DNA of 34,828 nucleotides from an uncultured Candidatus Peribacteria bacterium. Lineage in GTDB: Bacteria; Patescibacteriota; Gracilibacteria; Peribacterales; Peribacteraceae. Positions 12,403-28,396 of the stretch are shown one piece after another. The translations under genes were made by a program, and so were the position numbers. The notes under the pieces were generated by a model, which was given only the letters and a program-made list of their open reading frames with translations, made no database searches and was not told the origin of the DNA. Location of the stretch: positions 1 through 34,828 of the forward strand of contig CAZLFU010000003.1 in the NCBI GenBank assembly GCA_964558895.1, written 5' to 3'. Position 1 is the first letter of the stretch, and every line of letters starts with the position of its first letter.

Positions 12403-13455
12403 TCACTCCATAGGCCAATCCTTATCGTCAAATACCGCTCCCTCCACTTTTGGATCGCGCCCCTTTTTGATGGCTTTATAGCGCTGTTCTGCCCTACGCC
12501 ACGTTGCAAACTGCTCTTCTGTAATGCGTTTTTCTCGATTATAGAGATCTCGTTCTGCATCGTGAGTCCGCTCTCGCTCGTGTCGGATAATCGAGTCTTT
12601 CTGGAGTTGTATACTGTGCTTGTGTTCAGAGAGTTCCTTTTTAAGGTCTACTTCTAGGTCTGATCGCTGTTTGATAAAACGTTTTTGGGCTATTTCCTTC
12701 TGGCGATTTTCCTCTTGTTCTAGAAGTCTTTCGGTTCTTGTACGCTCGGAAACATCGTGAATAGATTGAAGTTCCTGTTTTTTACGCTCGTATTGAAAAG
12801 CGATTTTCTGTAGATCCATTTTCTCCTTTTCATTCATGCGAGTAAGTTTTTGCCGATACTCTACCTGTAGAACTTGTTGTCTTTCTCGTTCCTGTCCTTC
12901 TAGTTCTGCTCGTTTCTTCCGAGCATCTTCTGCAATGACATGCTTTATCTGATGAGCTTCTTGCTCGGCCAGTAGTTTGAACTGAGCTGCTTTTGCTTTT
13001 GCTTCGGCGTACATACGATCTCTTTCCACAAGGGCATTATGTTTCCACTCTTCCTCTTTTACATTCCTCGCGGCCTCTTCGCTCACGCCTTCCATATACT
13101 CTTGTTGCTTTCCTTTCTCATCTTTCGCTTTTTCACGCAGCTCTTGCTCATGTAGTTCTCTTTCTTTTTTTCTCTCCTTATCTTTGAGCAATTCCTCTTT
13201 ACGCTGCTTCTCCTGCTCTGCCCATTTCTTGCGCTCCTCTCGTCTGTGTACTACCTCTTCGTCTTGTTCCTTCACCATGACGTGCTCCTGTTCCTCCTGC
13301 TTTGCAGCTTCTTCCTGATGTTTCAATTTAGATGCATCCTGTTTTTCTTTCACTTCTGCACGTAGCTCCGCACCGCGTTCGAGGGTGTCTCCAAAAGGGT
13401 TTGGATTTGGGGTTTTCTTGCCTTGATTGTTATCTGTTTGAGGGTTCGGAAACAT
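12403..13455 (-). CDS. Hypothetical highly charged E/K/R-rich protein (350 aa), probable long charged helix or coiled coil
   Basis: Uninterrupted ORF dominated by E, K, R and Q. It has a short Pro/Asn-rich N-terminus and an ordered-looking C-terminus (FATWRRAEQRYKAIKKGRDPK). Confidence 0.65.
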   Translation of the reverse strand: MFPNPQTDNNQGKKTPNPNPFGDTLERGAELRAEVKEKQDASKLKHQEEAAKQEEQEHVMVKEQDEEVVHRREERKKWAEQEKQRKEELLKDKERKKERELHEQELREKAKDEKGKQQEYMEGVSEEAARNVKEEEWKHNALVERDRMYAEAKAKAAQFKLLAEQEAHQIKHVIAEDARKKRAELEGQERERQQVLQVEYRQKLTRMNEKEKMDLQKIAFQYERKKQELQSIHDVSERTRTERLLEQEENRQKEIAQKRFIKQRSDLEVDLKKELSEHKHSIQLQKDSIIRHERERTHDAERDLYNREKRITEEQFATWRRAEQRYKAIKKGRDPKVEGAVFDDKDWPME

Positions 13456-13703: not shown

Positions 13704-15467
13704 TTATTCCACAATAATTTTCACTCCCAACTCAGTAAGCTGTGCTTCTGGCATGATGGAAGGTGCACCAAGCATCAAATCTTTTGCCTTCTGGTCTTTT
13801 GGATAGGCGATCACCTCTCGGATGTTTGGCTCACCTGCAAAGATCATCGCGATACGGTCGAAGCCCCAGGCGATTCCCCCATGCGGAGGAGCGCCATACT
13901 GGAAGGCTCGTAACATGTGGCCAAAACGCCTCTCTGCGTCTTCGTCAGAAATATTCAAAATATTAAAGACACGCTTCTGCAATTCCCGCTCATGAATACG
14001 AATAGAACCTCCGCCGATTTCGCTTCCATTCAATACAACGTCATAAGCCTCTGCCTTTGCAGAAAGGGGATCTACTTCCAGAGTTTCCGTATATTCCTTT
14101 TTGGGGCGTGTAAATGGATGATGAACTGCAGCAATTGCCCCTGTTTCTTTATCTTTTTCAAACATAGGGAAGTCTGTTACCCAGCAGTAGGCAAATACAT
14201 TTGGGTCGGCCAGGTTTTGACGCTTGGCAATTTCTATACGCACGGCACCTAGACTTTCGCAGGCAGTAGCAAATTGATCTGCAGCAAAAAAGAGGATATC
14301 TCCATCCTGCACACCAATTTCACTCGCAATCTTCTTCATGGTTTCTTCACCTAGCTTATCAACGGGCACTCCTTCGAAAGCGCCATTTACCACTTTTACC
14401 CACGCGAGACCTTTTGCACCATAGATCTTGGCTACCTCTGTAAGATCATCAATATCTTTGCGGCTAAAACTTGCCCCATTGGGGACGCGGAGAGCCTTCA
14501 CAGAGCCGCCATTTTCTACAGTAGAAGCAAACACGCCAAAGCCACACCCTTTGCAGAGGCCCGTAACATCCGTAAACATGAGATCGTATCGCAAATCTGG
14601 CTTATCGGATCCATAGGTATTCATGGCTTCTTCCCATGTCATGCGAGGAAAGGGCGTCTGCTTGATTGTGATATCTGGACGCAGTTCTTTGGTGATGCTG
14701 ATGAGCGCCTCTTCGTTGAAACTCATGATATCTTCTGCCTCGATGAAAGACATCTCCACGTCTACCTGTGTAAATTCTGGCTGGCGGTCGCCACGTTGAT
14801 CTTCGTCTCGGAAACAACGTGCTATTTGCATGTAGCGGTCCAAGCCTCCAATCATCGTGAGTTGCTTTAACTGCTGTGGTGATTGTGGAAGCACGTAGAA
14901 TTGACCGTGATGGAGCCTGCTTGGTACCAGGTATTCGCGAGATCCCTCTGGCGTTCCTTTGATGAGAATCGGCGTCTCTACTTCTATAAAATCTCTACTA
15001 TAGAAGAACTTGCGTACAGCCTGCAAAAGCTTGTGTCGCAGGATGATGTTGCTCTTCATTCGCTCTCGTCGTAAATCTAAATAACGGAATTCCATGCGGA
15101 TTTCTTCGCCTACTTCTTTTGTCTGGTCGATCTCGAAAGGAGGAGTGGCAGACTCATTGAGTATTACGAGCTCTTCTACGAGCACTTCTATTGCACCAGT
15201 GGGATTATCTTCTCGCTCTGCACCTTCTAGGCGCTTGCGGACTTTGCCAGAAATTTGCAGTACCCATTCCGAGCGTACCTTCTCCGCTGCAGCAAACATG
15301 TCTTTATTGGAAGGATCGATTACAACCTGTGTAAAGCCATACCGATCGCGTAGATCGATGAAAATAAGGCCACCATGATCTCTTCTTCTGTGCACCCATC
15401 CTGCAAGCTGAACAGATGCATCCAGATGATCATTTCGTAATTCGCCGCAGGTATTTGTCCTTAACAT
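13704..15467 (-). CDS. aspS: Aspartyl-tRNA synthetase (bacterial type)
   Basis: 587 aa. It has the class II motifs (FRDEDLRADRQPEF-like CFRDEDQRGDRQPEFTQVD, GGGSIRIH, and the GFDR motif in WGFDRIAMIF) and an N-terminal OB domain. Confidence 0.93.
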   Translation of the reverse strand: MLRTNTCGELRNDHLDASVQLAGWVHRRRDHGGLIFIDLRDRYGFTQVVIDPSNKDMFAAAEKVRSEWVLQISGKVRKRLEGAEREDNPTGAIEVLVEELVILNESATPPFEIDQTKEVGEEIRMEFRYLDLRRERMKSNIILRHKLLQAVRKFFYSRDFIEVETPILIKGTPEGSREYLVPSRLHHGQFYVLPQSPQQLKQLTMIGGLDRYMQIARCFRDEDQRGDRQPEFTQVDVEMSFIEAEDIMSFNEEALISITKELRPDITIKQTPFPRMTWEEAMNTYGSDKPDLRYDLMFTDVTGLCKGCGFGVFASTVENGGSVKALRVPNGASFSRKDIDDLTEVAKIYGAKGLAWVKVVNGAFEGVPVDKLGEETMKKIASEIGVQDGDILFFAADQFATACESLGAVRIEIAKRQNLADPNVFAYCWVTDFPMFEKDKETGAIAAVHHPFTRPKKEYTETLEVDPLSAKAEAYDVVLNGSEIGGGSIRIHERELQKRVFNILNISDEDAERRFGHMLRAFQYGAPPHGGIAWGFDRIAMIFAGEPNIREVIAYPKDQKAKDLMLGAPSIMPEAQLTELGVKIIVE

Positions 15468-15474
15468 GGGCAGA

Positions 15475-15480
15475 ATTGTA
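15475..15480 (-). promoter_or_regulatory. -10-like TACAAT, 7 nt upstream of aspS ATG
   Basis: The minus strand reads tacaat, then tctgccc, then ATG at 15467. Confidence 0.4.
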
Positions 15481-15531
15481 TGGGAGTTTATGGCTTGTTG
15501 CTAGATTTATCTTTTATTTTCTGAATGACTA

Positions 15532-15556
15532 CATGATTTCATGATTTCATGATTAA
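15532..15556. repeat. Left 25-bp inverted repeat (8-mer atgatttc iterated)
   Basis: catgatttcatgatttcatgattaa is the exact reverse complement of 16094-16118. Confidence 0.85.
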
Positions 15557-15946
15557 TTAATCTGGCAATCGCTCATTTGTATATTTAATGAGGGAATTTA
15601 TGTCCTTTGGGAGTAACTGTAACTGTTGATAAGTGTAATTATATTCCTCAGTAGTAAGTAAATTGCGTATTCTTGCTTTTTCATTCCAATCAAGAGCTTC
15701 TCTTACAGAAGCGGCACTGTATCTATAGAATTTGATTCGGTCTCTTTTGCCATATCGACCAAATCCTTCTGCGATGTTTGCCGAAATAGAATCAACCGAT
15801 CGAACAAATTGCTTACCAACTGTGTCTTTTGCAAGCCAATCCCACGAAAGCACGATATTCCACACTTCATTGGAAAGGTGAAAGGCAATGCGATAAGAGC
15901 TTATTTGATTAAGTTGCATGTACTGCATAGCAGACCAAAATATCAC
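15557..15946 (-). CDS. Four-helix-bundle protein (23S rRNA intervening-sequence protein family)
   Basis: Family-typical core: VRSVDSISANIAEGFGRYGKRDRIKFYRYSAASVREALDW. The true start is uncertain (GTG at 15946, ATG at 15928 or 15919). Confidence 0.75.
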   Translation of the reverse strand: MIFWSAMQYMQLNQISSYRIAFHLSNEVWNIVLSWDWLAKDTVGKQFVRSVDSISANIAEGFGRYGKRDRIKFYRYSAASVREALDWNEKARIRNLLTTEEYNYTYQQLQLLPKDINSLIKYTNERLPD

Positions 15947-16093
15947 TTTAGAACACCTAAGAATATTCTCAGGCTTACAATCAGAAAGTCTTTATAGCGT
16001 AAAATCCGCATCAGAAAGCGACATTCCCTGTTCTTTCCAAAGAAGAACTAACCCAGCCTACTTAGAATAGCCCATCAAAACCCTCTAAACTTC

Positions 16094-16118
16094 TTAATCA
16101 TGAAATCATGAAATCATG
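16094..16118. repeat. Right 25-bp inverted repeat (8-mer atgaaatc iterated)
   Basis: ttaatcatgaaatcatgaaatcatg. The 8-mer run continues to 16125 and overlaps the nrdR stop codon (16122-16124). Confidence 0.85.
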
Positions 16119-16121
16119 AAA

Positions 16122-16568
16122 TCATTTAAACAAATTCCCCAATTCCTCTTTAAATTCCTCAACGTCTTTGAATTCTCTGTGCACAGAGGCAAAACGGATG
16201 TAGGCAACTTGGTCCAATTTCTTCAATTCTTTCATGACGTCATTGCCAATGGTAGAACTGGCAACCTCCTTTTTGTTGGCTCCCCATTTTTCTTCCAACT
16301 TATTGAGGAGGTCATCAATTTGCTGCTGGGATATTGGCCGCTTGGTACAAGAAAGCCAAATACCACGTTCTAGCTTACTACGGCTATAGGGTTCCCTCGT
16401 TCCATCTCGCTTCATTACAATAAGAGAGCTAAGTTCCTGCCTCTCGAATGTTGTGAATCTGTGATTGCATTTGATGCACTCCCGCCGCCTGCGGACCGTC
16501 CGTCCTTCTTCCGTAATGCGGGAATCGATGACGGACGTGTCTGTGCTTTTACAATGTGGACAGTGCAT
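16122..16568 (-). CDS. nrdR: Transcriptional repressor NrdR
   Basis: 148 aa. It has the N-terminal zinc ribbon (MHCPHC...VIDSR....GR.VRRRREC..C..RFTTFE) followed by an ATP-cone. TAATGT (16575-16580) lies 6 nt upstream of the ATG. Confidence 0.92.
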   Translation of the reverse strand: MHCPHCKSTDTSVIDSRITEEGRTVRRRRECIKCNHRFTTFERQELSSLIVMKRDGTREPYSRSKLERGIWLSCTKRPISQQQIDDLLNKLEEKWGANKKEVASSTIGNDVMKELKKLDQVAYIRFASVHREFKDVEEFKEELGNLFK

Positions 16569-16606
16569 AGATCTACATTACCTCAGTTGACCACGCTCGC
16601 AACTTA

Positions 16607-16798
16607 TTAACCAAGCAAACCCCTTAGGCCTCTTCGGTTATTTAACACTGCTTCTGCCTGAGCCCTTCGTAGAGAGATTTCCATTTGTTCAGCTACTTCT
16701 TGCTCACGAGTTTTTGGCTGAGCTTCTGGAGCGATCTGCGCTTGGTCACTATTATCAGGTGATACAAATACAGGTTCTGGTGCTGTGTCTACAGACAT
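16607..16798 (-). CDS. Possible small hypothetical protein (63 aa)
   Basis: ORF starting at an internal ATG (MSVDTAPEP). Low complexity, with no promoter or SD support. Confidence 0.25.
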   Translation of the reverse strand: MSVDTAPEPVFVSPDNSDQAQIAPEAQPKTREQEVAEQMEISLRRAQAEAVLNNRRGLRGLLG

Positions 16799-16958: not shown

Positions 16959-17564
16959 CTAGAGACGTACTTCGCCTTTCCTCAACACAGTTTGCGCATT
17001 TTCTACCAAAGAAATGACTGTGGAAGATGCTCGAAGGGGAAGGATGCCACTACTCAAGAGGAGATTTGGCTGCCAAGTTTGGTTTGCAAATTGCTTCGCA
17101 ATTTCATCGGGATCATACAGTGGTGGCTGGCCGTGGATATTGGCAGAGGTTGTACTAAGAGGCTTACCAAACACTTCTGCAAGCTTCTGTGCAGTGGGAT
17201 GAGAAGAAACGCGTACGCCGACACTTGAACAATCGTTTTGAGGCATTGGGAAAAGCGTACCCCTTCTTTCTGATCGTAGTGGGAGGATAAGCGTAAGTGG
17301 CCCTGGCAGATGTTTTTTTGCCAATTCTTCTGCCTTCTCATTCCATTGGGTATATTCCTTTGCCTGGTCGATAGAAGCAAACAAGCTGCTTATGGGCATA
17401 TCCAATGGGCGCTGCTTGATGGCGAATACTTTTTTGACTGCTTCGATGTTACCCAGATCGCAGGCAAGACCGTATGTTGTTTCTGTAGCGTGCACGACAA
17501 CTCCTCCTGCATGCAGGATGGCGAGCGCTTCTTCTAGGCCTTCGGTATCAATGAGAAACTTCAT
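16959..17564 (-). CDS. tsaC: L-threonylcarbamoyladenylate synthase (YrdC/TsaC type)
   Basis: 201 aa from MKFLIDTEG. It has the motifs HATETTYGLACD, KQRP...P, LPGPLTLIL, VGVR.S and TSAN. TACAAT (17572-17577) lies 7 nt upstream of the ATG. Confidence 0.85.
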   Translation of the reverse strand: MKFLIDTEGLEEALAILHAGGVVVHATETTYGLACDLGNIEAVKKVFAIKQRPLDMPISSLFASIDQAKEYTQWNEKAEELAKKHLPGPLTLILPLRSERRGTLFPMPQNDCSSVGVRVSSHPTAQKLAEVFGKPLSTTSANIHGQPPLYDPDEIAKQFANQTWQPNLLLSSGILPLRASSTVISLVENAQTVLRKGEVRL

Positions 17565-18177
17565 CAGGATTATTGTACGTATTTTTCTGTTTGGCACCTG
17601 CGTTATGTTGATTTTCTTTGTGCTGACCATTTCCTGTATTGTTTACTCTTCCCCGCGCTCGTTCTCGTAATTGCATCAATGTGTGGTATTTCTTGGAGAT
17701 GTGTGGAGTGAAGTGAATACGCATAGTTGTTTCCTGCGCATCTAGTATCAAACTACCGAAACCAAGGATGTTTTGAATAGGGCCGTGTTGGCTTTTGTTA
17801 ATGTCTTGTAGCATCCAAATATCGATGCTTTGATGATCATCAATGGCGAAGAGGGTCTTCTTTATTCTATGCACTTTGTTATTGGTGATGACAGTGATAT
17901 TGAGAAAGTAGCGGTAAAATCTGCTCAGAAGTTCCCATTGAGCAAAGGAAAAGAGTAGAGAGAGTACGACCAAAATTAACCTCCTTGTGAATGGATCTGC
18001 TACGGTAGTATTTCCAAATATCATGTATCCCATTGTAAAAATTAAGAGAGTCCACACCGCTGTTTTGGCGACAGGTCTTAGGAGGCGAATCCAGTGCTGA
18101 CGAAAGCAAAGCTCACAGGTTTCGTGTACATCTTGTCCTTGAAACATCGCCGTAGATTGTTGAGATTCATTTACCAT
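17548..18177 (-). CDS. Membrane protein with bacterial PH (bPH_2/YdbT-like) domain
   Basis: Two TM helices (AVWTLLIFTMGYMIF, LILVVLSLLFSFAQ) are followed by ITVITNNKVHRIKKTLF....SIDIWMLQDI......NILGFGSL. I chose the ATG at 18177. The longer track start overlaps the upstream small ORF. Confidence 0.65.
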   Translation of the reverse strand: MVNESQQSTAMFQGQDVHETCELCFRQHWIRLLRPVAKTAVWTLLIFTMGYMIFGNTTVADPFTRRLILVVLSLLFSFAQWELLSRFYRYFLNITVITNNKVHRIKKTLFAIDDHQSIDIWMLQDINKSQHGPIQNILGFGSLILDAQETTMRIHFTPHISKKYHTLMQLRERARGRVNNTGNGQHKENQHNAGAKQKNTYNNPDEVSH

Positions 18178-18441: not shown

Positions 18442-21400
18442 CTAATCCACTACGCCCTGCTTCGTGGATTTCTCTGCGTATTTTGCGATCACTTCTTCTA
18501 TTTTCTGTTCGAGAATAGTAGATATATTAATGGTAAGAGGAAGGGGGATCACTTGGTCACCTATTTTGAGTTGCACTTTTTCTTTCCCTGGGAAAGTCTC
18601 CAGTATTTTTTTGAGATCGAGGAGGAGAGTTTTGGGAGCTCTATCTGGCAACTCGATAGTGTGAATAGAGATAGAGGGGACGGCAGGTGCTGTTGGGACA
18701 TCTCCATTCTTTTTCTCTGACAGATTTGTCGGCTTAGAAAAGAGAGTTGCAATAGATTCATTTGTATTCATGCCTTTTAAGATCCAGGAGCCAAGTGGGC
18801 CAAGGAATTCATCTCCTGTTTCCGCTTCTACTACTTGTATCTTTTCTCCTGCGATTACATTGCCTTCTTCATCCAGTATTTCTACCACCTCTTCGTCATC
18901 AAAGACTGGTTTGGTAATAGAGATTCCCTTCTTTGCTTCTTCTTCGTCAAAGAAACCTTGCTCCTTTGCATTGGCAATCATTGTAGTAAGCGTCACACGT
19001 TTGACTGCATTGGCGCGTAGTTGCAATTGCCCACCTCGATAATCCAGTACCCCATTGATTACCAACACAGTATCTGGTTCCTCCAAAAGATGACCAACCT
19101 CTGCAAAGGTACGAGGAAAGAGTGTCACTTCTATTTTACTTGTTGGGTCTTCCAGAAAGAGGATAGCCATTGTGTCGCCCTTCTTTGTTGTAATTTTTTT
19201 CACACCTTCGGCAATACCAGCAATAGTAATCGTTTTCCCAATTTCTTTTTGAGTAAGATTTGCCAGAAGTTGAGCCTTTTTACTGATGTATTTTCGTAAA
19301 CCAGCTAGTGGATGGCTGGATACATACAGACCCAGTGTTTCTTTTTCCCATTGTAGCTTTACCACATTGGATGCCTCTTTTATGGTAGGAAATTGAATAT
19401 TCATTACCTCTTCCTTGGTATCCATGTGTGCAAATAAGTCGGTCTGCGTTGTACTGACATCTCCAGCAGACTTCCCAAAGTCTACTATGTATTCGTAGCA
19501 TTCCACTGCGGTTGTACGGTCTATGAGCGAATCGAGAGCGCCAGATTTTGCAAGTGATTCAATCATTTTCTTATTGAGAATTTTGGCAGGCATTCTGCGT
19601 GCAAAATCTTCTATGCTCTCAAATTTTCCTCCAGCTTCTCGTACTTCTATAAGCTGCAAGACAGAACTATCTCCAATGCCTTTGATGGCAGTAAGCCCAA
19701 AGCGAATAGCAGGTTGATCACCAGCTTTCTTTTTGGGGAGAGCAGTAAAGTGCCTTAGGGATTCATTTACATCGGGAGGAAGAACATCTATGCCCATTGC
19801 GCGACACTCTTCAATTTCGATCATCACTCTATCGGTACGCTGAGCATCGCTACTGAGGAGCGCTGCCATAAATTCCACAGGATAATTTGCTTTGAGATAT
19901 GCAGTTTCATAGGCAATTCTGGCATAGCCAGCGGCATGGGATTTATTGAAACCGTATCCAGCAAATGGAGTAATAACGTCATCAAAAATTTTCTCGGCTA
20001 GCTTTTGCAAGTATCCCTTGGCAACAGCACCCTCTATAAACTTTACGCGTTGGTCATCCAATTCCTTTTTAACTTTCTTACCAATGGCTTTGCGCAAAAT
20101 ATCTGCTTGCCCCAACGAAAATCCAGAGAATACCTGTGCTATCTGCAGAATCTGTTCTTGATAAATTCCAATTCCGTACGTTGGTTCCAAAATTGGCTTC
20201 AAGTCGTTGTGTACGTACGCCACATTTTCTTTGCCGTGTTTCCTTTTGATGAAGCTAGGGATCCATTCCATAGGACCTGGTCTGTAGAGTGATACCATCG
20301 CTGTAATATCTTCAAATTCCGTTGGCTTGAGTTGCTTAAGATATCTACGCATGCCCGCGGATTCCAATTGGAAGACTCCGGTAGTATCTCCTTTTTGCAA
20401 TAAAGAAAATGTCTTGGGGTCATCGAGCGGAATACTTTCTATATCGAGATCTTCCGATTTTGTTCTCTTGATAATTTCTAGTGTCGTTTGGATCACTGTT
20501 AAGTTCATGAGTCCTAGGAAGTCCATTTTGAGTAATCCAAGAGCATCCAATTGCTTCCCTGCTGTCTGTGTAATAATAATATTTTCATCTTTGGGTGCCC
20601 TTTGGAGAGCGGTATAATGCACAGTGGGCTCCTCTGTAATGATCACTCCACAAGCATGGACAGATACATGCCTTGCTTTGCCTTCCAACTGCAGAGCGGT
20701 ATCTATGATCTTTCGATATGTTTCGTGTGCATCATACGATGCCTTTAACTCCGCTGTTTCCAGGGCTTCCTCTAGTGTGGTTCCTGGTTTTTCTGGAATG
20801 AGTTTGGCGAGCGCATTCATTTCCATAAATGGCACACCAAATGCGCGCCCAACATCCTTTACCGCTGCTCTTGCAGCAAGTGTTCCAAAGGTACAAATTT
20901 GTACCACACGATCACTTCCATATTTTTCTCGCACGTAGTTGAGCACAATATCGCGGCTCGTGTCTGCGAAGTCGATATCTACGTCTGGCATACTTACACG
21001 TTCTGGATTCAAAAATCGTTCGAAGAGAAGTCCATGTTCAAGAGCATCGAGCGCTGTAACACCTATACAGTAGTAGACGATGGAACCCGCGGCAGAACCT
21101 CTTCCGGGGCCTACTGTAATTCCTCTTCGCTTGGCCTCGTTTACAAAGTCTCCCACAATGAGGAAGTACCCTGGAAATCCCATCTGCTCAATAACGCTCA
21201 ATTCAAATTCCAGACGGTCCTTTGCTTCCTGTGTATGATTTGGATATTTTTGAGCAAATCCCTTCTCTGCAAGAGTCCTCAATTCTTTTGCTTCATTTGA
21301 TCCTTCTGGGACAGGGAAGCGTGGAATATGATAGGTGGAAAAATCCAATGCGACGTTGCATCTTTCTGCGATGACAGAGGTATTTTCTAGAGCTTCGGGT

Positions 21401-22182
21401 ACATGTGCGAACGATTGATGCATTTCCTCAAATGAACGCATGGAATAATCGCTATCGCGCATAGAAAAACGACTTGGATCATCTACACGTGCATTTTTCT
21501 GGATACAGAGAAGTACGTCATGTGCTTCTGCATCAGCAGGCCTGCAATAATGAGCGTGGCAAGTAGCAACGAGGGGTACCCCCAATTCTTTTCCCCAATG
21601 AATGAGTTGCTGATTTACTTCTGCTTGGCCACTTACATTTGGAAGATCTATTAATTCGTAGTACAGATTATCTTTCCCAAAAAATTCACGATACTGCTCT
21701 GTGAGATTTTTGATACGCTCACCATCTTCTGCAAGTGCTGCTTGAGGGATAGCTCCTCCAATTTGGCCTGTAAGAGCAATCAGCCCTTTTCCGTATTGAG
21801 AAAGAAGTTCTGCATCCACGCGCGGTTTGTAATACATTCCTTCCAAGCCCGCTTTGGTTGCAAGTTGCAAAAGATTTTTATACCCCTCTTCATTCTCTGC
21901 AAGCAGAACTAGCGGGTATCTTTTGGTATCTATTCCAGATTCCTTGTCGTGTCTGGTTCGGGCTGCGACGTATGTTTCCATGCCGAGAATTGGTTTGATG
22001 CCATGCTTTTTCGCGGCCTGGTACAACTCTACTAGCCCGTAGGTGTATCCCTTATCTGCAAGCGCTACCGTCTTACATCCAAGTTCTTTTGCACGTATGA
22101 CAATTTCCTCTGGGCTTGGAAGTGCCTCGAGAAGGGAATAGGTAGAATGGCAGTGTAAGTGGACAAAATCCTCTGGCTTCAT
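18442..22182 (-). CDS. dnaE: DNA polymerase III alpha subunit
   Basis: 1246 aa. It has the PHP domain start (FVHLHCHSTYSLLEA), the polymerase core (PDVDIDF, GLLKMDFLGL, FNKSHAAGY) and a C-terminal OB region. Confidence 0.95.
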   Translation of the reverse strand: MKPEDFVHLHCHSTYSLLEALPSPEEIVIRAKELGCKTVALADKGYTYGLVELYQAAKKHGIKPILGMETYVAARTRHDKESGIDTKRYPLVLLAENEEGYKNLLQLATKAGLEGMYYKPRVDAELLSQYGKGLIALTGQIGGAIPQAALAEDGERIKNLTEQYREFFGKDNLYYELIDLPNVSGQAEVNQQLIHWGKELGVPLVATCHAHYCRPADAEAHDVLLCIQKNARVDDPSRFSMRDSDYSMRSFEEMHQSFAHVPEALENTSVIAERCNVALDFSTYHIPRFPVPEGSNEAKELRTLAEKGFAQKYPNHTQEAKDRLEFELSVIEQMGFPGYFLIVGDFVNEAKRRGITVGPGRGSAAGSIVYYCIGVTALDALEHGLLFERFLNPERVSMPDVDIDFADTSRDIVLNYVREKYGSDRVVQICTFGTLAARAAVKDVGRAFGVPFMEMNALAKLIPEKPGTTLEEALETAELKASYDAHETYRKIIDTALQLEGKARHVSVHACGVIITEEPTVHYTALQRAPKDENIIITQTAGKQLDALGLLKMDFLGLMNLTVIQTTLEIIKRTKSEDLDIESIPLDDPKTFSLLQKGDTTGVFQLESAGMRRYLKQLKPTEFEDITAMVSLYRPGPMEWIPSFIKRKHGKENVAYVHNDLKPILEPTYGIGIYQEQILQIAQVFSGFSLGQADILRKAIGKKVKKELDDQRVKFIEGAVAKGYLQKLAEKIFDDVITPFAGYGFNKSHAAGYARIAYETAYLKANYPVEFMAALLSSDAQRTDRVMIEIEECRAMGIDVLPPDVNESLRHFTALPKKKAGDQPAIRFGLTAIKGIGDSSVLQLIEVREAGGKFESIEDFARRMPAKILNKKMIESLAKSGALDSLIDRTTAVECYEYIVDFGKSAGDVSTTQTDLFAHMDTKEEVMNIQFPTIKEASNVVKLQWEKETLGLYVSSHPLAGLRKYISKKAQLLANLTQKEIGKTITIAGIAEGVKKITTKKGDTMAILFLEDPTSKIEVTLFPRTFAEVGHLLEEPDTVLVINGVLDYRGGQLQLRANAVKRVTLTTMIANAKEQGFFDEEEAKKGISITKPVFDDEEVVEILDEEGNVIAGEKIQVVEAETGDEFLGPLGSWILKGMNTNESIATLFSKPTNLSEKKNGDVPTAPAVPSISIHTIELPDRAPKTLLLDLKKILETFPGKEKVQLKIGDQVIPLPLTINISTILEQKIEEVIAKYAEKSTKQGVVD

Positions 22183-22239: not shown

Positions 22240-22701
22240 CTACGAGCCGCAGTCTTCGTCTTCGTAAGTTGAGCAGATTTTGATGAAGCTACCCAACTGA
22301 TAGATGCGGTAGCCGGTTACAGTTACACTTGTCTCACTTGGGTCTACGGGGATACCAACAAAGTACTCCGAGTTTGTCGTAAGCACAGAAAGATCAAAAC
22401 CATTTGTTGGTGGGTCCGTACAGGCTGTGCCGGTAATTCCGTCTTGGCAGATATCCTTGGCTACTGCTTTAAAATTGGGGACTCCTGTGAGTGAATTTCC
22501 GTCAATAATATACTGAGAAATTGCATTTTCAATTTCTCGAATGGAGAGATTTCTATCTGCACCTCTTGCGTCTTCCAATTGTTTGGTTGGATTGATAGCT
22601 GCTATCACAATTGCTACTAAAATAGCGATGATACCAAGCACCAACATGATTTCTATAAGTGTGAAACCGTTTTGCCAGTGTGGAATTCGACGACTGTTCA
22701 T
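22240..22701 (-). CDS. Type IV pilin / pseudopilin-like protein
   Basis: Prepilin signal: MNSRRIPHWQNG/FTLIEIMLVLGIIAILVAIVIAAI. The C-terminal half has two Cys pairs. The start could instead be the GTG at 22713. Confidence 0.8.
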   Translation of the reverse strand: MNSRRIPHWQNGFTLIEIMLVLGIIAILVAIVIAAINPTKQLEDARGADRNLSIREIENAISQYIIDGNSLTGVPNFKAVAKDICQDGITGTACTDPPTNGFDLSVLTTNSEYFVGIPVDPSETSVTVTGYRIYQLGSFIKICSTYEDEDCGS

Positions 22702-22749
22702 GGAAGGGTACACAAACCTTACTGCAACTTACGAAACGCTGCAATATGA

Positions 22750-24264
22750 CTAGAGACCTGCATCTATTTTGCAGGCTTCGTGAGCATTGCCACTGTAGAG
22801 ATAATCTCCACTGGTGTACGGGAAACAGTTGTCCGATTCTAGAATTTTGAGCAGTGTATCGAGTTTTTCATTACAGGGTCTGTAGAGACATGAGCGCCTG
22901 AGGAAAAATGTATAGTCTATGGCAAACCCACGAACACTTGTTCCTTTCTCGCTGGCTAACTTTGCAAATTGGAACATCGCCTTGCGCAGTTGCGCAGAAA
23001 ACACATTACGAATTTGATACGTTGCATCTGTGCCTTTTGCGATAAATGCAGCTTCTGCTGCACCCTGCGCGGTTGTGAATTCTTGGTATGCTTTTTTTCC
23101 TTCTGATGTTTCTTCCCATAGTGTTACTGTGGGGGAGGTAGGAATCTTACGTTCTATTCCCCAATGTTGCTTGAGGCTCAATAAATTTTCTAAGATTCCA
23201 AGTTGATTCTTTTCGTACGAGAATGGCCCTCGTAGTGCAGCTTTGGTTCCCCCTAATGCATAAATAATATTTGGATCTACTGGGCCAGTTGTAACCTGCC
23301 CATTTGGTTCATGACGAGCTTCGCATCCAAACACCACTTTACGTGGAATAGTTGCAAAGGAAGAAATGGCAGCAGACGGAGCACCTACAATAGAACTCGT
23401 ATTGTTGATCGTGTTTGCTATTTCGGCAAGAAAGTCATCCCTCCAATCCATAAATGCTTCCAACCCGGCAATCTCTTCGTTCGTTGATACATTTGGTCCT
23501 CCTTTGTATGGGAGAAGAACATCCAAGGTGCAACCCAAACCAGCATTGGTAGGCGGAAGATAATCGGAATGGAATGGGCATAGAGCCTCTGGTGTCTCAA
23601 TAACTGGTATGACACCATTGCATCCAGGGCAACAAAAATTCATGCAGGACGCTTCACCAGCATACGATCGACCAAATGCAAGACGCGTGCAAGCTTGTGC
23701 AGAATCATACAACTCGCAGGCATTTCCAATATTTGCACAACACCAAACAGATTGATCTGGATCGAAACTTCGGGGAATTTGCCATCCTTCATCAACATAG
23801 AGAGGATCTAGACCTCCACGGAACAAGCTCTCGTATCGTTCATTGAGGAAGGTGAGTAAATCTTGCAATTTTAAGATCCCGACGGAAGACCCTTGAGAAT
23901 ATGCCTCTTGCATTTTGCAGCGTACCCTCTGCATTTCTGCCTCGATCAAAGCGAGATCTAAATGCATACATGCGGTGAGATCTAAATCCCGTTCCTGTGC
24001 AGTAATGCGTAACTTTGTATCTAGTAAGCTATTCATGGCCACCCCCATTTTCGTGAGCCAGAACAAATAATTCGTATTTGGATCAAATCCTGGAAGAGTA
24101 CTTTGGGCATTTTGAATTCCAGCTTCAGCTCGGTTGAGTACTTGCTGTGTGTAGTGCGAAGAAATAGGTGCTAAAGCGAGAATAGCAGGATCCTCACATG
24201 CATATGCTTCTACTTGTTGAGGTAGGAAGAGCAAGAAGCCGAGAAAAGAGAATACTGAAAGCAT
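22750..24264 (-). CDS. Secreted cysteine-rich hypothetical protein (504 aa)
   Basis: I prefer the ATG at 24264, which exposes the signal peptide MLSVFSFLGFLLFLPQQVEAYA. The upstream 146 codons of the track ORF overlap the preceding gene. It has Cys clusters (WCCANIGNACELY, CMNFCCPGCNG). Confidence 0.7.
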   Translation of the reverse strand: MLSVFSFLGFLLFLPQQVEAYACEDPAILALAPISSHYTQQVLNRAEAGIQNAQSTLPGFDPNTNYLFWLTKMGVAMNSLLDTKLRITAQERDLDLTACMHLDLALIEAEMQRVRCKMQEAYSQGSSVGILKLQDLLTFLNERYESLFRGGLDPLYVDEGWQIPRSFDPDQSVWCCANIGNACELYDSAQACTRLAFGRSYAGEASCMNFCCPGCNGVIPVIETPEALCPFHSDYLPPTNAGLGCTLDVLLPYKGGPNVSTNEEIAGLEAFMDWRDDFLAEIANTINNTSSIVGAPSAAISSFATIPRKVVFGCEARHEPNGQVTTGPVDPNIIYALGGTKAALRGPFSYEKNQLGILENLLSLKQHWGIERKIPTSPTVTLWEETSEGKKAYQEFTTAQGAAEAAFIAKGTDATYQIRNVFSAQLRKAMFQFAKLASEKGTSVRGFAIDYTFFLRRSCLYRPCNEKLDTLLKILESDNCFPYTSGDYLYSGNAHEACKIDAGL

Positions 24265-24265
24265 A

Positions 24266-26740
24266 TTATTCAAATCCACGAGGGCACATCTGGGAAGGAA
24301 GGCGAACGTTGGAAATTCCAGAGAGGATCGTATTTGCATTTTCGATGAGTTCGGCCAGCGTCCTACCAGGGTAGAGAAGATAATTTGCATAGAGTTCTGT
24401 GCCAATTTTTGTGGCAATCCCCTGCGATAGCTTTTGTGTATTGAAGGCAGGTTCTGCGTACTCAACTTGTTGGTCGAGTAGGCTTTGTGCGGTTGCAATA
24501 TCGAGCCCCTTTGGCGCATCAAACGCGCGCGAGTTTTCGAATGCACAAAGCACTGGTGGTGTTTTAGCAGGCAAGCCATTTGTCTGACAAATTGCGAGAT
24601 CCATTTGTTCCATAAGCCATTTAGGAGTGTACGGTGGAAATCGTGTAGATGGTCGCCTTGGTATTGTGAGAATTTCTCCAATGACGGGGTCTGGTTTGAC
24701 ATCTGAATCTTTTTCGAAAGATTGATCTTGAGAAACGATTGCCATTCTGCCGGGGATAATTCTTTCGTGTTCTATGGATTGCTCTATACATTGCCCTATG
24801 TAGCACAGGTTATTTCCAATCGTGTTTTCGTACGTAGCCTGACATTCGGGAGAGCAGATCATAGGGAGTGAATTGATCATTTTTTTCGCGCGCCCATCCA
24901 TATTGTTGATAGCGTCTTCGCAGGAGAGATTTACGCCCAACTCATTCGCGTACGTTTCTGTAAACTGGAAGATCATTGCGTTGATTGTATTCAACTCATC
25001 CACAGAAACTGAGGGTGTGCAAATCATCGATGTTATATTTCCTACACGATCTGTTGGTGCACATGAATTATTTGAAAGAATGCTGCTGCATACTTCGATA
25101 TCTATGCCTAATGTAGGGAGGACACCATCTTCTGCTAGTGCAGCACACTGCGCATGATATGCCTCTCGCTCGTTGGCACAACACTGTTCTGTACCAGTGA
25201 ACATCGTATCAAATGTGTTCTGACCGGGTGGTTGACCACACAATTGCTGTGCGTGAACCAATTCATGAATGAGAACATAATCTGCAAATCCCGCTTCTCC
25301 TAATTCGTTAGGAATACATATTTCTATGACTCCATTATCATTTTTCGGGTTTGTTATCGCAAGCCGCGTTCCCCTTCCACAATTATCCGCACAGTAAATG
25401 TCTACTGCACAGTTGCTACATTCATTTGGCTCAATAGCAGGACTTCCATCAGAGCCATCTTGCTTTTCTGGTGTGTCAGGAACTGTTGAGATGTACGGAT
25501 CAGTTCTCCATCCTCCAATTTCACATATGTCTGTTCCAAATGTTGTATCTGCAACGTAGGAATCGAATAATTGAGGTTCGCAGGATGTGAGTGTTATGGT
25601 GTTTGGCTCGTCATCACTACTTGAACCTCCTCCTATATCAGTACTTTCTCTGCAATCAGAAGAGCGGATAGACCTACAAAGATATCCTCTTTGTCCAAAG
25701 AAATGTGAGCATATACCTTCATTGAGACCAGGTTCTGGTGGTGGATCTGGGTATTTTCCACCAAGAATTGCACCATTCACACACTCTGGTGGCGCGGCGC
25801 TTGAGTTGGAACAATCTAAGGAGGGCAACACTGGTTCTAGTGGCAGACCCCATTGTAGGCCTACATCTTTTTGACTTGCCCACACACTCACATTGAGATC
25901 TGGAAAAGTATAAATTGGGAATATGACATGTTCATTGCGAGTAAGTGGTGGATCGAATGTCATTTGTTGAATTTCTTGTAGTATAGCTTCGAGTGCATTT
26001 TCTACGTCGCACCATCGCATGCGCAGTGTTTGTAGTTCTGTTCCGTCGCCCAGGCTGTTACTAGGGTCACAAGCACCATTGTAATATAGTATCGATTCAA
26101 ATCCGTGACGGTAACGCCACACAGCTGCCGTAAACTCTTCGCCATCATTAAGAGTGTCATTATTTTGAAGCCCTCGAAGGCTCGCACGTAGGTCAGCTAG
26201 TGGACCACTACCATTTGTAACGGTATCAGGAAATGAAGCGCCTCTTAGTTGGGTTTCTATAATTGGGCTTTGAAGTTTATCCGTGTCGGATTGCCATATC
26301 TTGATAATACTTGGCATGCGAGTTGCTACATTTATTTTTCTGCCAGGATATCCATCAATTCCCAATTCGTAACTACTGGCAATTATTTGTAGATCTCTTC
26401 CGAGAGCACGTATCCAATTTGTGCCATTTGCTATAGATGTGATTTCGCTTGTCAGAGCATCGCAATCATTCCATGTGAGAGGATATGGGTCGTATGATTT
26501 TCCCGCGCAGAGACTGTTTACATCTTGTCGTACTGCCCTATTAACATCTTCCTCTACTACTTTCCATTTTGCGGGCATAGCATTTTTTACAAATCGTTTT
26601 ACCACCGGCTCAACTTTTGAATTGGTGTAGTATTCTTGAAGTGTAATTTTTTGCATACGCTCGTAGAGTGAGTCGTCATTTGCTATGACGCTGTGAGGTG
26701 CAACAAGAAGAAGGCCGATAATTATGGTTGAGGATCGCAT
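24266..26740 (-). CDS. Secreted cysteine-rich protein with HExxH zincin motif (824 aa)
   Basis: Signal peptide MRSSTIIIGLLLVAPHSVIAND. The motif YVLIHELVHAQQLCG lies at 25253-25267. Many Cys residues. Confidence 0.75.
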   Translation of the reverse strand: MRSSTIIIGLLLVAPHSVIANDDSLYERMQKITLQEYYTNSKVEPVVKRFVKNAMPAKWKVVEEDVNRAVRQDVNSLCAGKSYDPYPLTWNDCDALTSEITSIANGTNWIRALGRDLQIIASSYELGIDGYPGRKINVATRMPSIIKIWQSDTDKLQSPIIETQLRGASFPDTVTNGSGPLADLRASLRGLQNNDTLNDGEEFTAAVWRYRHGFESILYYNGACDPSNSLGDGTELQTLRMRWCDVENALEAILQEIQQMTFDPPLTRNEHVIFPIYTFPDLNVSVWASQKDVGLQWGLPLEPVLPSLDCSNSSAAPPECVNGAILGGKYPDPPPEPGLNEGICSHFFGQRGYLCRSIRSSDCRESTDIGGGSSSDDEPNTITLTSCEPQLFDSYVADTTFGTDICEIGGWRTDPYISTVPDTPEKQDGSDGSPAIEPNECSNCAVDIYCADNCGRGTRLAITNPKNDNGVIEICIPNELGEAGFADYVLIHELVHAQQLCGQPPGQNTFDTMFTGTEQCCANEREAYHAQCAALAEDGVLPTLGIDIEVCSSILSNNSCAPTDRVGNITSMICTPSVSVDELNTINAMIFQFTETYANELGVNLSCEDAINNMDGRAKKMINSLPMICSPECQATYENTIGNNLCYIGQCIEQSIEHERIIPGRMAIVSQDQSFEKDSDVKPDPVIGEILTIPRRPSTRFPPYTPKWLMEQMDLAICQTNGLPAKTPPVLCAFENSRAFDAPKGLDIATAQSLLDQQVEYAEPAFNTQKLSQGIATKIGTELYANYLLYPGRTLAELIENANTILSGISNVRLPSQMCPRGFE

Positions 26741-27558
26741 CTGAGGGGGTCGTCACAAATATCGCGTAGTGAATCTTTTGCATTCCAAATACGTGGAAGG
26801 CAACTACTTGTTTCTGCAGCAATGGCGAATGCGTTACGGAAATCAAGAGAGGCTCGTTGCATACATTGCAGCTCTTTATCCAGGGTAAGCAATCGGTTAA
26901 AGCCTCCTACAAACTCTAGGACTCTATTGGCTATTGCTCTGGCAGTTAGTAATTCTCTATCAATTTTTTCCTGCTGATCTGCCGTTTCCTTTGTTATTTT
27001 TTCTAGAATAATGGGAGTCAAGCCAGCACCAAAAATAATATCGCTCCACTGGAATTCTTCTCTGGTCACGTCAATTGCAAGACTGTATCCACGTTCTCGC
27101 AGAACACATTCGTATGCATTTACATATTCAAGTATCACAGCTCCAAAATCGTCTTCGCTCAGACGTGCAAAATCCGTCGGATTTTTCCATGGTGGGAGAT
27201 TGCTTGCTACGAAAGATAATGTCGATCCTGGTGGAGAAAAATTCGCCAAGGTATCTGCAGTGCAATTTGGCGCCGTTTCATTGTTGATATCTTTCATATG
27301 GTGAGACACCATGTCGTTCATCGTGCTGTGATATTTACTTTGCCAAATATCTATAGGATCTTGTTTGGTATCTGGATCATTTCCAAATTCTGCAAGTGTA
27401 TACCCAAAGAGTGTTTGATATTCCGAGAGTGAACATGGTTCCAAGATTGGATAGGTAGATTGCGCACTCGTAGGTGGTATCCATTGAGTTTCTATGAACA
27501 AAATACCAATGACGAAGAATAGTGTTGAGAAAGCCTTTTGTGGCAACTGAACAATCAT
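26722..27558 (-). CDS. Secreted hypothetical protein (278 aa)
   Basis: N-terminal hydrophobic segment AFSTLFFVIGILFIETQ. The C-terminus is Cys-rich (CLPRIW...ICDDPLRCDP). It overlaps the next gene by 19 nt. Confidence 0.65.
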   Translation of the reverse strand: MIVQLPQKAFSTLFFVIGILFIETQWIPPTSAQSTYPILEPCSLSEYQTLFGYTLAEFGNDPDTKQDPIDIWQSKYHSTMNDMVSHHMKDINNETAPNCTADTLANFSPPGSTLSFVASNLPPWKNPTDFARLSEDDFGAVILEYVNAYECVLRERGYSLAIDVTREEFQWSDIIFGAGLTPIILEKITKETADQQEKIDRELLTARAIANRVLEFVGGFNRLLTLDKELQCMQRASLDFRNAFAIAAETSSCLPRIWNAKDSLRDICDDPLRCDPQP

Positions 27559-27561
27559 GAT

Positions 27562-28386: not shown

Positions 28387-28396
28387 AGACGTACGT

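What the first reader, a model, noticed from the sequence alone, without database searches (positions are those of the whole stretch)
15532..16118. Four-helix-bundle (rRNA-IVS-type) gene carried in a 587-bp unit bounded by perfect 25-bp inverted repeats, outside any rRNA
Seen: catgatttcatgatttcatgattaa (15532-15556) is the exact reverse complement of 16094-16118. Both arms are built from an iterated 8-mer. The right arm's repeat run overlaps the nrdR stop codon. The only gene inside encodes a protein with the ANIAEGFGR core of the four-helix-bundle family. Established: this family was first noted inside 23S rRNA intervening sequences, where terminal inverted repeats form an RNase III-processed stem. 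Inference: here the same ORF-plus-stem architecture sits between two protein-coding genes, which argues that it is a self-contained insertable module (MITE-like, or RNA-level stem-loop processed) rather than an rRNA-specific feature.
Basis: partly seen in the sequence, partly recalled or inferred. Interest (0 to 1): 0.62.

Follow-up and report, generated by a model that had tools for sequence, protein, structure and literature searches.

The report
Mobile four-helix-bundle gene cassette with octamer-repeat arms
[quoted passage not shown] The same gene-plus-arrays unit recurs in at least five bacterial phyla as a roughly 440-base cassette that has moved between genomic sites, so it looks like an intervening sequence living in operons rather than in rRNA.

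Summary
15532-15556 is the exact reverse complement of 16094-16118. Both arms are runs of CATGATTT. The run reaches into the nrdR stop codon. The only gene inside is a PF05635/TIGR02436 four-helix-bundle protein.

The interpretation, a self-contained insertable module, is supported.
- Peribacteraceae relatives keep tsaC-nrdR-aspS, but their nrdR-aspS spacers are 12-28 nt (654 nt here). The closest relative has an ORF-less octamer hairpin at that site.
- In 83 loci of the same protein subfamily from at least five phyla, 70 have at least 3 in-phase 8-nt units (consensus ATTGTTNN) upstream and the reverse complement downstream.
- Copies in unrelated contexts share only about 425-460 bp, and that homology ends inside the arrays. 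One such pair lies in a single MAG.
- The gene runs the same way as both neighbours in 54 of 59 loci, and the arrays fill the spacers.
- The gene is under purifying selection, and its model matches Xcc0516, BT_0352 and DGR Avd.

Most likely it is an IVS-type cassette that is expressed by read-through, with arms that pair into a stem of about 25-33 bp. RNase III cleavage and binding of the arrays by the protein are inferred, not shown. The insertion mechanism is unknown. I found no paper describing this architecture.

The parts
16094..16133 (-). Upstream (5') array in the sense of the gene: AUGAUUUC-type 8-nt units. The perfect arm is 16094-16118. The outer degenerate units overlap the last four codons and the TGA stop of nrdR.
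   Evidence: (I1, D1)
15929..16093 (-). 165-nt leader between the upstream array and the ATG. Its function is unknown. It has no Rfam match and no similarity to any fetched locus. It is unusually long for this element class.
15557..15928 (-). Four-helix-bundle protein gene (123 aa; PF05635 / TIGR02436; Avd-like fold).
15517..15556 (-). Downstream (3') array, the reverse complement of the upstream one. The perfect arm is 15532-15556 and starts immediately after the gene's TAA stop.
15468..15516 (-). Residual nrdR-aspS spacer outside the element. It holds a -10-like TACAAT (15475-15480) that corresponds to the TATACT box conserved 6-12 nt upstream of aspS in relatives.
16122..16568 (-). nrdR, the upstream host gene. 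Its 3' end (...TTT AAA TGA) is fused to the first repeat unit; most relatives end ...TTT AAA TAA.
13704..15467 (-). aspS, the downstream host gene.

Best explanation
This is one copy of a widespread insertable cassette. A single four-helix-bundle (23S-rRNA-IVS-protein / Avd-like) gene is bracketed by two inverted arrays of an 8-nt unit. The family consensus unit is ATTGTTNN; the variant here is ATGATTTC.

Shown:
- The cassette is an insertion into the nrdR-aspS spacer of a Peribacteraceae (Peregrinibacteria, CPR) chromosome.
- Cassettes of this class sit between co-directional host genes in the sense orientation.
- The arrays fill the spacers, which leaves little room for a dedicated promoter.

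Inferred:
- The gene is expressed by read-through from the upstream host gene, here nrdR.
- In that transcript the two arrays pair into a long stem (25 perfect bp here, about 33 with the flanks) that closes off the whole cassette, as the terminal repeats of ORF-carrying 23S rRNA intervening sequences do.
- RNase III probably cuts the stem and releases the cassette RNA from the host mRNA.
- The pentameric, Avd-like protein probably binds RNA, perhaps the periodic arrays themselves.

Not known: how the cassette inserts. The best guess is exchange between its arrays and pre-existing ORF-less array hairpins or array-like sequence at gene ends, because homology between copies decays inside the arrays.
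For: Insertion at this site:
- Relatives with conserved tsaC-nrdR-aspS order have 12-28 nt spacers, against 654 nt here.
- The closest relative (AspS 79% identical) carries an ORF-less octamer hairpin at the same site. A 66% relative carries another.

A general architecture:
- In the flanks of 83 loci, lag-8 autocorrelation is 0.70/0.73, against 0.44-0.51 at other lags.
- 70 of 83 loci have at least 3 in-phase units in both arms. The unit logo is A98 T93 T84 G95 T76 T95 N N, and the modal count is 4 units per arm.
- 42 of 53 stringent arrays lie within 250 nt of the gene ends, a zone that is 16% of the sequence.

Mobility:
- L018 and L019, from the same MAG, share 440 bp at 96.4% with unrelated flanks.
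- L036, L058 and L048 share 425-434 bp at 93-95%. L012 and L024 share 460 bp at 85%.
- The protein is 58-72% identical across phyla, while AspS falls to about 50% among the more distant metagenome loci.

Dependence on host transcription:
- 58 of 60 upstream neighbours, 61 of 66 downstream neighbours and 54 of 59 pairs run the same way as the gene. Median spacers are 62 and 57.5 nt.

Stem:
- The MFE and centroid folds of the 651-nt transcript close the unit with the array stem (z = -2.66).
- Same-locus arm duplexes have a median of -36.5 kcal/mol, against -33.2 for cross-locus pairs (p = 2e-7) and -27.5 for shuffled arms. Unit counts of the two arms correlate (rho = 0.35, p = 0.003).

Precedent:
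- The Coxiella 23S IVS carries an S23p ORF with tandem heptamers next to its start codon. RNase III cuts at the first repeat (PMC4990558).

Protein:
- Synonymous to nonsynonymous codon differences are 10:2, 13:4 and 37:12 in close pairs.
- The AF2 model has pLDDT 95.4. It matches pentameric Xcc0516 (TM 0.87-0.93), BT_0352 and DGR Avd.
- Avd binds RNA stem-loops in DGRs (bioRxiv 10.1101/2023.10.23.563531).
Against: - There are no RNA data, so read-through expression and RNase III cleavage are untested.
- Arm mismatches show no sense-strand G.U bias (68 against 77). Sense and antisense duplex energies are equal. Nothing therefore separates an RNA stem from a DNA-level inverted repeat.
- The variable NN positions are not mirrored between arms beyond what shuffling unit order gives (0.653 against 0.640, p = 0.14). 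The arms behave as arrays of a shared motif, as protein-binding sites would, rather than as a stem kept up by compensatory change.
- No target-site duplication is visible, and no recombinase, transposase or reverse transcriptase is linked. No RT domain was found among the window's ORFs of 110 aa or more that were scanned.
- Different ORF-less hairpins at the same site in relatives could mean that such hairpins arise in situ.
- A distant family member (34% identity, Pseudanabaena plasmid) has no arrays.
- This copy has an unexplained 165-nt leader that could hold its own promoter.
Confidence: 0.55

Rival explanations
1. DNA-level, MITE-like or non-autonomous transposon. The inverted octamer arrays are terminal binding sites for a transposase or recombinase encoded elsewhere, the cassette moves as DNA, and any RNA stem is incidental.
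For: - The 6-nt core and the fixed inward orientation of the arrays are conserved across phyla.
- Homology is limited to the module in unrelated contexts.
- ORF-less versions exist.
- There is no sense-strand wobble bias.
Against: - No target-site duplication is visible at the window junctions.
- No transposase lies near any of the roughly 85 loci examined.
- A symmetric-ended DNA transposon should insert in both orientations, yet 54 of 59 copies are co-directional with both neighbours. Selection for expression could still explain that bias.
- Only 1 distant relative turned up in 2.9 million viral contigs.
Confidence: 0.2
2. The arrays are primarily host or regulatory intergenic hairpins that arise and turn over in situ by slippage. 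They could mark operon boundaries, act as RNA processing or stability signals, or serve as translation-initiation pads. The four-helix-bundle gene would be a passenger that spreads by recombination between such hairpins.
For: - The nrdR-aspS site carries different ORF-less periodic hairpins in different relatives: L167, L094, L121-L123 and L093.
- Arrays abut the stop and start codons of host genes.
- Arrays also bracket other cargo: RhuM and SIR2-like fragments.
- Heptamer repeats with a related core lie just upstream of start codons in Beggiatoaceae, Cyanobacteria and Bacteroidetes (PMC4679880).
- Outer units diverge more than inner units between L018 and L019.
Against: - Arrays are about 20-fold enriched at four-helix-bundle genes relative to the rest of 450 kb of flanking sequence.
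- The closest empty sites have 12-18 nt spacers with no hairpin at all, so the hairpin is dispensable.
- The window has only this one array pair in 34.8 kb.
Confidence: 0.2
3. The gene is a remnant or a satellite of a diversity-generating retroelement, that is, an Avd accessory gene.
For: The fold matches DGR Avd (4dwl, 8ub7; TMq 0.62-0.74, TMt 0.67-0.84). Pfam PF05635 is the family that a DGR review associates with Avd.
Against: - No reverse-transcriptase domain was found among the window ORFs scanned.
- No template/variable repeat pair appears in the local repeat scan.
- The same single-gene cassette sits between housekeeping genes in dozens of genomes.
Confidence: 0.02

Closest known systems
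ORF-carrying intervening sequences of 23S rRNA (Leptospira, Coxiella burnetii, Xanthomonas; 'S23p' ORF)
   Same: - Same protein family (PF05635/TIGR02436).
- Terminal inverted repeats close the element into a stem.
- Short tandem repeats lie next to the ORF start (heptamers GACAGAT x3 in Coxiella, at the RNase III site).
- Expression depends on a host transcript.
- Distribution is sporadic, with presence/absence between relatives (PMC4990558).
- CPR rRNA insertions also carry this ORF family (bioRxiv 10.1101/2024.02.27.582315).
   Different: - This copy lies between two protein-coding genes, not in an rRNA helix.
- The arms are arrays of an 8-nt unit with a consensus shared across phyla.
- The ORF is under purifying selection, whereas it is decaying in Coxiella.
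- RNase III excision has not been shown here.
MITEs whose terminal repeats fold into RNase III substrates when co-transcribed (Correia/CREE elements of Neisseria; REPINs). From my own knowledge; not checked in papers here.
   Same: Small intergenic insertions bounded by inverted repeats that are co-transcribed with their neighbours. ORF-less versions of the present element look very similar.
   Different: - This element carries a conserved, selected ORF.
- Its arms are periodic arrays rather than unique terminal repeats.
- No target-site duplication or partner transposase has been identified.
- It shows a strong orientation bias.
Avd, the accessory protein of diversity-generating retroelements
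   Same: Four-helix-bundle fold (TMq 0.62-0.74, TMt 0.67-0.84 to 4dwl/8ub7). Avd is a pentameric barrel that binds RNA stem-loops.
   Different: - No reverse transcriptase and no template/variable repeats.
- Sequence identity is only about 8-14%.
- The gene is a single-gene cassette.
Intergenic tandem heptamer repeats (TAACTGA repeats of Beggiatoaceae, Cyanobacteria and Bacteroidetes; MacGregor 2015, PMC4679880)
   Same: - Short periodic intergenic repeats that abut start codons.
- A similar A(C/T)TG core.
- Overlapping phyla.
- Indels in whole units.
- Suspected horizontal spread with no known mechanism.
   Different: - Those repeats have a 7-nt rather than an 8-nt unit.
- They are direct arrays, not inverted pairs.
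- They have not been linked to a cargo gene.
Integron gene cassettes. From my own knowledge.
   Same: Promoterless single-ORF units that are co-oriented and bounded by imperfect inverted-repeat sites.
   Different: - The repeats flank both sides of the gene.
- There is no integrase or attI.
- The cassettes are scattered through housekeeping operons rather than collected at one platform.

Membership tests
PF05635 / TIGR02436 four-helix-bundle protein (23S rRNA IVS protein, 'S23p') | HMM match above the curated cut-off | tested here: met
   PF05635 at 68.7 bits against a cut-off of 33.8. TIGR02436 at 78.2 bits against 24.
PF05635 / TIGR02436 four-helix-bundle protein (23S rRNA IVS protein, 'S23p') | Four-helix-bundle fold like Xcc0516 (2gsc) and BT_0352 (2rld) | tested here: met
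   The AF2 model has pLDDT 95.4 and four helices. Foldseek gives TM 0.87-0.93 to 2gsc and 0.73-0.85 to 2rld.
PF05635 / TIGR02436 four-helix-bundle protein (23S rRNA IVS protein, 'S23p') | Homopentameric ring | not tested
   Both matching crystal entries hold 5 chains. No oligomer prediction was run for this protein.
23S rRNA intervening sequence (IVS) | Inserted in a helix of an rRNA gene | tested here: not met
   The window has no rRNA. The element lies between nrdR and aspS.
23S rRNA intervening sequence (IVS) | Terminal inverted repeats that pair into a stem enclosing the element | tested here: met
   A 25-bp perfect repeat, 40 nt at 88%. The stem closes the unit in both the MFE and the centroid fold.
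23S rRNA intervening sequence (IVS) | Excised from the host transcript by RNase III | not testable with these tools
   No RNA run holds the locus. Runs found for related loci are contigs with low word share.
23S rRNA intervening sequence (IVS) | Sporadic presence among relatives | tested here: met
   Empty nrdR-aspS sites occur in relatives.
MITE / non-autonomous TIR transposon | Terminal inverted repeats | tested here: met
MITE / non-autonomous TIR transposon | Target-site duplication flanking the repeats | tested here: inconclusive
   No direct repeat is visible at the junctions. The nearest empty sites are only 75-79% related, so the exact breakpoints cannot be fixed.
MITE / non-autonomous TIR transposon | No coding capacity | tested here: not met
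   The unit holds an intact 123-aa gene under purifying selection.
MITE / non-autonomous TIR transposon | Several near-identical copies per genome | tested here: inconclusive
   There is one copy in this 34.8-kb contig, and the rest of the genome is not available. Another genome holds two copies at 96% in different contexts.
Diversity-generating retroelement | Reverse transcriptase next to the Avd-like gene | tested here: not met
   No RT domain in the window ORFs scanned or in the called neighbours of L001-L005.
Diversity-generating retroelement | Template/variable repeat pair | tested here: not met
   The repeat scan of 15000-16700 finds only the arrays and short chance pairs. A window-wide scan was not run.
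Tandem heptamer intergenic repeats (TAACTGA type) | 7-nt unit in direct tandem arrays | tested here: not met
   The period is 8, with no signal at lag 7, and the arrays come as inverted pairs.

The most novel reading that the evidence does not exclude
The cassette may be a new kind of recombinase-less mobile element in which the Avd-like pentamer is itself the maintenance or mobility factor. In this reading the pentamer reads the 8-nt periodic arrays, with one unit per protomer as in TRAP. Typical arms have 3-6 units. The cassette would then move either through its RNA, using a reverse transcriptase supplied in trans as Avd does in DGRs, or by array-templated exchange into solo hairpins. ORF-carrying rRNA intervening sequences would be the subset of insertions that landed in rRNA.
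Probability: 0.15. Interest if true: 0.9.

Novelty: new variant of a known kind. Interest (0 to 1): 0.7.

Why it matters
ORF-carrying intervening sequences in rRNA were described in the early 1990s. It has never been settled what their conserved ORF does or whether they are mobile; the Coxiella IVS paper still lists these as open hypotheses.

This work shows three things:
- The same gene travels as a sharply bounded cassette of about 440 bp through housekeeping operons of Bacteroidota, Chlorobiota/Ignavibacteria, many CPR lineages, Gammaproteobacteria and Planctomycetota.
- The cassette always has inverted arrays of one 8-nt motif, and it has a near-absolute orientation bias.
- The ORF is under purifying selection.

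That makes the old question testable in ordinary culturable bacteria. Pedobacter aquatilis CECT 7114 (L072) and Hymenobacter lucidus BT178 (L057) both carry the cassette.

It also gives a candidate ligand, the (AUUGUUNN)n array, for a structurally solved protein family with no known function. It may connect the family to the unexplained intergenic heptamer repeats of cyanobacteria and Beggiatoaceae. For annotation, these cassettes and their ORF-less hairpins explain size variation of intergenic spacers in CPR and Bacteroidota genomes and may also contribute to contig breaks there.

Tried and rejected
- Exact-protein look-up of NrdR found nothing on record.
- RNA evidence could not be obtained. 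No RNA run holds the window locus. Runs found for L041 and L083 are contigs with 4-10% of the words and gave no processing information. They only showed that arrays recur in many contexts and that a related strain differs around the first L083 cassette.
- DNA runs gave no empty-site joints at 2-4x depth.
- A strand-specific wobble test for an RNA stem showed no bias.
- A mirrored-order test on the variable NN positions was not significant.
- Promoter and terminator scans of the region gave counts at chance level. There is no terminator between nrdR and the gene.
- The region has no Rfam hit at an E-value up to 1.
- The 165-nt leader is similar to nothing fetched.
- The protein has no PADLOC defence-system match.
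- A single-sequence PDB search found nothing. A profile search found 2rld and 2gsc weakly.
- Phage carriage is rejected: only 1 distant relative in the viral contigs.
- Family-wide generality is rejected: a 34%-identical member on a Pseudanabaena plasmid has no arrays.
- Seven literature searches found no description of octamer arrays around these genes.
- The Ralph & McClelland 1993 paper is not held in the library.

Full report
**1. The observation**

The sequence is as described. 15532-15556 (catgatttcatgatttcatgattaa) is the exact reverse complement of 16094-16118. The repeat finder extends the pair to 40 nt at 88% complementarity (15517-15556 with 16094-16133) and shows both arms to be runs of one 8-mer.

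The array motif occurs nowhere else in the 34.8-kb window: there are 5 matches, all in the arms, against 0.12 expected, and 0 of 100 shuffles reach 5. No other array with a period of 6-10 nt exists in the window.

All genes here are on the - strand:
- aspS: 13704-15467
- four-helix-bundle gene: 15557-15928
- nrdR: 16122-16568
- tsaC/Sua5: 16959-17630
- dnaE: 18442-22182

The nrdR stop codon (TGA, 16122-16124) lies inside the outer, degenerate repeat units. The gene inside the unit matches PF05635 (68.7 bits) and TIGR02436 (78.2 bits). The window has no rRNA. By the names that sources attach to AspS relatives, the organism is a Candidatus Peribacteraceae / Peregrinibacteria (CPR) bacterium. A strain about 95% identical, from another metagenome, has the element at the same place.

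**2. Is it an insertion?**

I fetched 80 loci that encode AspS relatives from metagenomes, and two more through exact-protein look-ups. I then located NrdR, the four-helix-bundle protein and TsaC in them.

About twenty loci keep the order tsaC-nrdR-aspS. None has a four-helix-bundle gene between nrdR and aspS. The spacer from the nrdR stop to the aspS ATG is 654 nt in the window. In relatives it is:
- 12 nt in L086 and L168
- 18 nt in L089 and L107
- 26 nt in L097
- 28 nt in L095

These are empty sites. A TATACT-like box 6-12 nt upstream of the aspS ATG is conserved in all of them. It is present in the window as TACAAT (15475-15480), outside the repeat-bounded unit, so the unit's inner boundary matches the left arm.

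The closest relative (L167, AspS 79% identical) has a 131-nt spacer that is an ORF-less hairpin. It has four ACTGTTAT-like octamers, a short loop, then five AACAATAT-like octamers. L094 has a 270-nt ORF-less octamer hairpin at the same site (MFE -60 kcal/mol). L121-L123 and L093 have shorter hairpins built from other 7-8-nt units. L087, L091 and L096 hold unrelated genes there. The site therefore turns over, and periodic-repeat hairpins come and go at it.

**3. Is the architecture general?**

The protein has thousands of relatives. The best are 63-72% identical and come from Patescibacteria, Bacteroidota and Chlorobiota. The first four contexts I looked at were all different housekeeping neighbourhoods, and all had inverted 8-nt-periodic arrays at both ends of the gene.

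A scan of one genome per GTDB species with an alignment of 37 subfamily members returned 80 loci. They come from Bacteroidota, Chlorobiota/Ignavibacteria, many CPR lineages, Gammaproteobacteria and Planctomycetota. Across 83 non-redundant loci:
- Flank autocorrelation peaks sharply at lag 8: 0.70 upstream and 0.73 downstream, against 0.44-0.51 at lags 4-12.
- 70 loci have at least 3 in-phase units in both arms. The modal count is 4 units and the range is 3-14.
- The unit logo is A98 T93 T84(G13) G95 T76(C16) T95 N N upstream, with its reverse complement downstream.
- The window's ATGATTTC is a variant of this unit. Other variants include ACATGGTT (L020) and ATTGTTCC (L034), and each is shared by both arms of its own locus.

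With a stringent array definition, 42 of 53 arrays in 450 kb lie within 250 nt of the gene's ends, a zone that makes up 16% of the sequence. The remaining arrays are the same motif, either as ORF-less hairpins or bracketing other cargo: RhuM in L001 and SIR2-like gene fragments in L053.

A 34%-identical family member on a cyanobacterial plasmid has no arrays. The arrays therefore belong to this subfamily, not to all of PF05635.

**4. Has the unit moved?**

Yes.
- L018 and L019 are two contigs of one Bacteroidales MAG. They share 440 bp at 96.4%, covering the arrays plus the gene, and nothing else.
- L036, L058 and L048 are three different MAGs. They share 425-434 bp at 93-95% with unrelated flanks.
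- L012 and L024 share 460 bp at 85%.

In the alignments, identity decays inside the arrays, and outer units differ more than inner ones.

The protein is 58-72% identical between phyla, while AspS from the same window drops to about 50% among the more distant metagenome loci recovered with it. This points to horizontal spread. Phages are not the vehicle: one distant relative was found in 2.9 million viral contigs.

Close pairs differ mostly at synonymous sites (10:2, 13:4, 37:12), so the protein is under purifying selection.

**5. How does it sit in the host?**

The gene is co-directional with the upstream neighbour in 58 of 60 loci, with the downstream neighbour in 61 of 66, and with both in 54 of 59. 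The median spacers are 62 and 57.5 nt, and they consist largely of the arrays.

Arrays often start at the stop codon of the upstream gene, as at nrdR here, and often end at the start codon of the downstream gene. Because the arms are symmetric, a cassette could in principle sit in either orientation. The bias therefore means that expression from the host transcript matters, or that insertion is coupled to transcription.

**6. Mechanism**

Shown: insertion, modularity, orientation, and selection on the ORF.

Inferred: in a read-through transcript the arms pair. The fold of the 651-nt RNA closes the whole unit with a stem of 7 + 25 bp in both the MFE and the centroid structure (z = -2.66).

Across loci, same-locus arm duplexes have a median of -36.5 kcal/mol, against -33.2 cross-locus (p = 2e-7) and -27.5 shuffled. 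The lengths of the two arms correlate.

In the one well-studied ORF-carrying IVS, that of Coxiella, tandem heptamers sit between the stem and the S23p start codon, RNase III cuts at the first repeat, and the copy number of the repeat varies among strains (PMC4990558). By analogy, RNase III would release the cassette RNA from the nrdR transcript.

The protein model (pLDDT 95.4) matches the pentameric Xcc0516 and BT_0352 structures and DGR Avd. Avd binds RNA stem-loops. An RNA-binding role, perhaps on the periodic arrays, is therefore plausible but untested.

Three results caution against a pure-stem reading:
- There is no sense-strand G.U bias (68 against 77).
- Sense and antisense duplex energies are equal.
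- The order of the variable dinucleotides is not mirrored between arms (0.653 against 0.640 for shuffled unit order).

The arms look as much like arrays of a recognition motif as like a compensated helix. The insertion mechanism is unknown. No target-site duplication, transposase or reverse transcriptase was seen. The decay of homology inside the arrays and the existence of solo hairpins suggest exchange between arrays.

**7. Comparison with known systems**

The element works most like an ORF-carrying rRNA intervening sequence, but it fails that family's defining feature, residence in rRNA.
- It resembles MITEs in being a small intergenic unit bounded by inverted repeats, but it carries a selected gene.
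- It shares a fold with DGR Avd, but it lacks the retroelement.
- Its arrays recall the intergenic TAACTGA heptamers described by MacGregor (PMC4679880), but they have an 8-nt unit and come as inverted pairs around a cargo.

Seven literature searches found no description of this architecture. That library is incomplete, so prior description cannot be excluded.

**8. Verdict**

RNase III processing, the protein's ligand and the mode of insertion remain open. I rate it a new variant of a known kind, with interest 0.7.

Noticed in passing
window 15475-15480 (- strand); L086-L123 just upstream of aspS: A TATACT-like -10 box (TACAAT in the window) is conserved 6-12 nt upstream of the aspS ATG in all Peribacteraceae relatives. 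It suggests a leaderless or very short-leader aspS mRNA.
   Followed up: partly
window 15929-16093: A 165-nt leader separates the upstream array from the start codon. Most related cassettes have 2-30 nt there. It has no Rfam hit and no similarity to any fetched locus, and it contains a direct repeat CTTTCTGAT. It may hold a private promoter or be a nested insertion.
   Followed up: partly
L167 2371-2450; L094 2731-3000; L121-L123 and L093 spacers: ORF-less hairpins built from 7-8-nt periodic inverted arrays occupy the same nrdR-aspS site in different relatives, each with a different unit sequence.
   Followed up: yes
L001 3410-4620; L053 2206-3421 and 5396-6010; L083 1081-4833: The same octamer arrays bracket other cargo: a truncated RhuM gene and SIR2-like gene fragments. 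They also form tandem sets of cassettes, and an HD-domain gene sits between two modules in two Ignavibacteria genomes.
   Followed up: partly
L087 938-2256: A 1.3-kb insert at nrdR-aspS carries a 406-aa gene on the opposite strand. The insert is flanked by a different set of periodic repeats (AATTGATAATTGAAAATTAAC and CATTTTCCATTTTTCATTTCC).
   Followed up: no
L036, L058, L048 about 3440-3480: A conserved segment of about 35 nt (TTTAGATTTATGCCGTGAATGGTTAC) follows the 3' array in three otherwise unrelated contexts. In that lineage the mobile unit may extend beyond the array.
   Followed up: no
window 32097-33041: The SSB gene encodes 314 aa, and Pfam reports two stretches matching the SSB domain, so it may be a tandem-OB SSB.
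   Followed up: no
window 22240-32053: A pilin-like gene (N_methyl motif) is followed by five large ORFs (650, 824, 278, 288 and 1218 aa) with no Pfam match. The 650-aa and 824-aa ORFs overlap by about 440 nt, which may mean a miscalled start or a frameshift.
   Followed up: no
window 12403-13455: A 350-aa Glu/Lys-rich protein lies downstream of aspS. Its position is conserved, at only about 28% identity, in several relatives.
   Followed up: no
run X3 laid on window 15522-15555: A contig in a drinking-water metagenome matches only the left array and has unlike sequence on both sides. A CATGATTT-type array therefore exists in at least one other context in that community.
   Followed up: no
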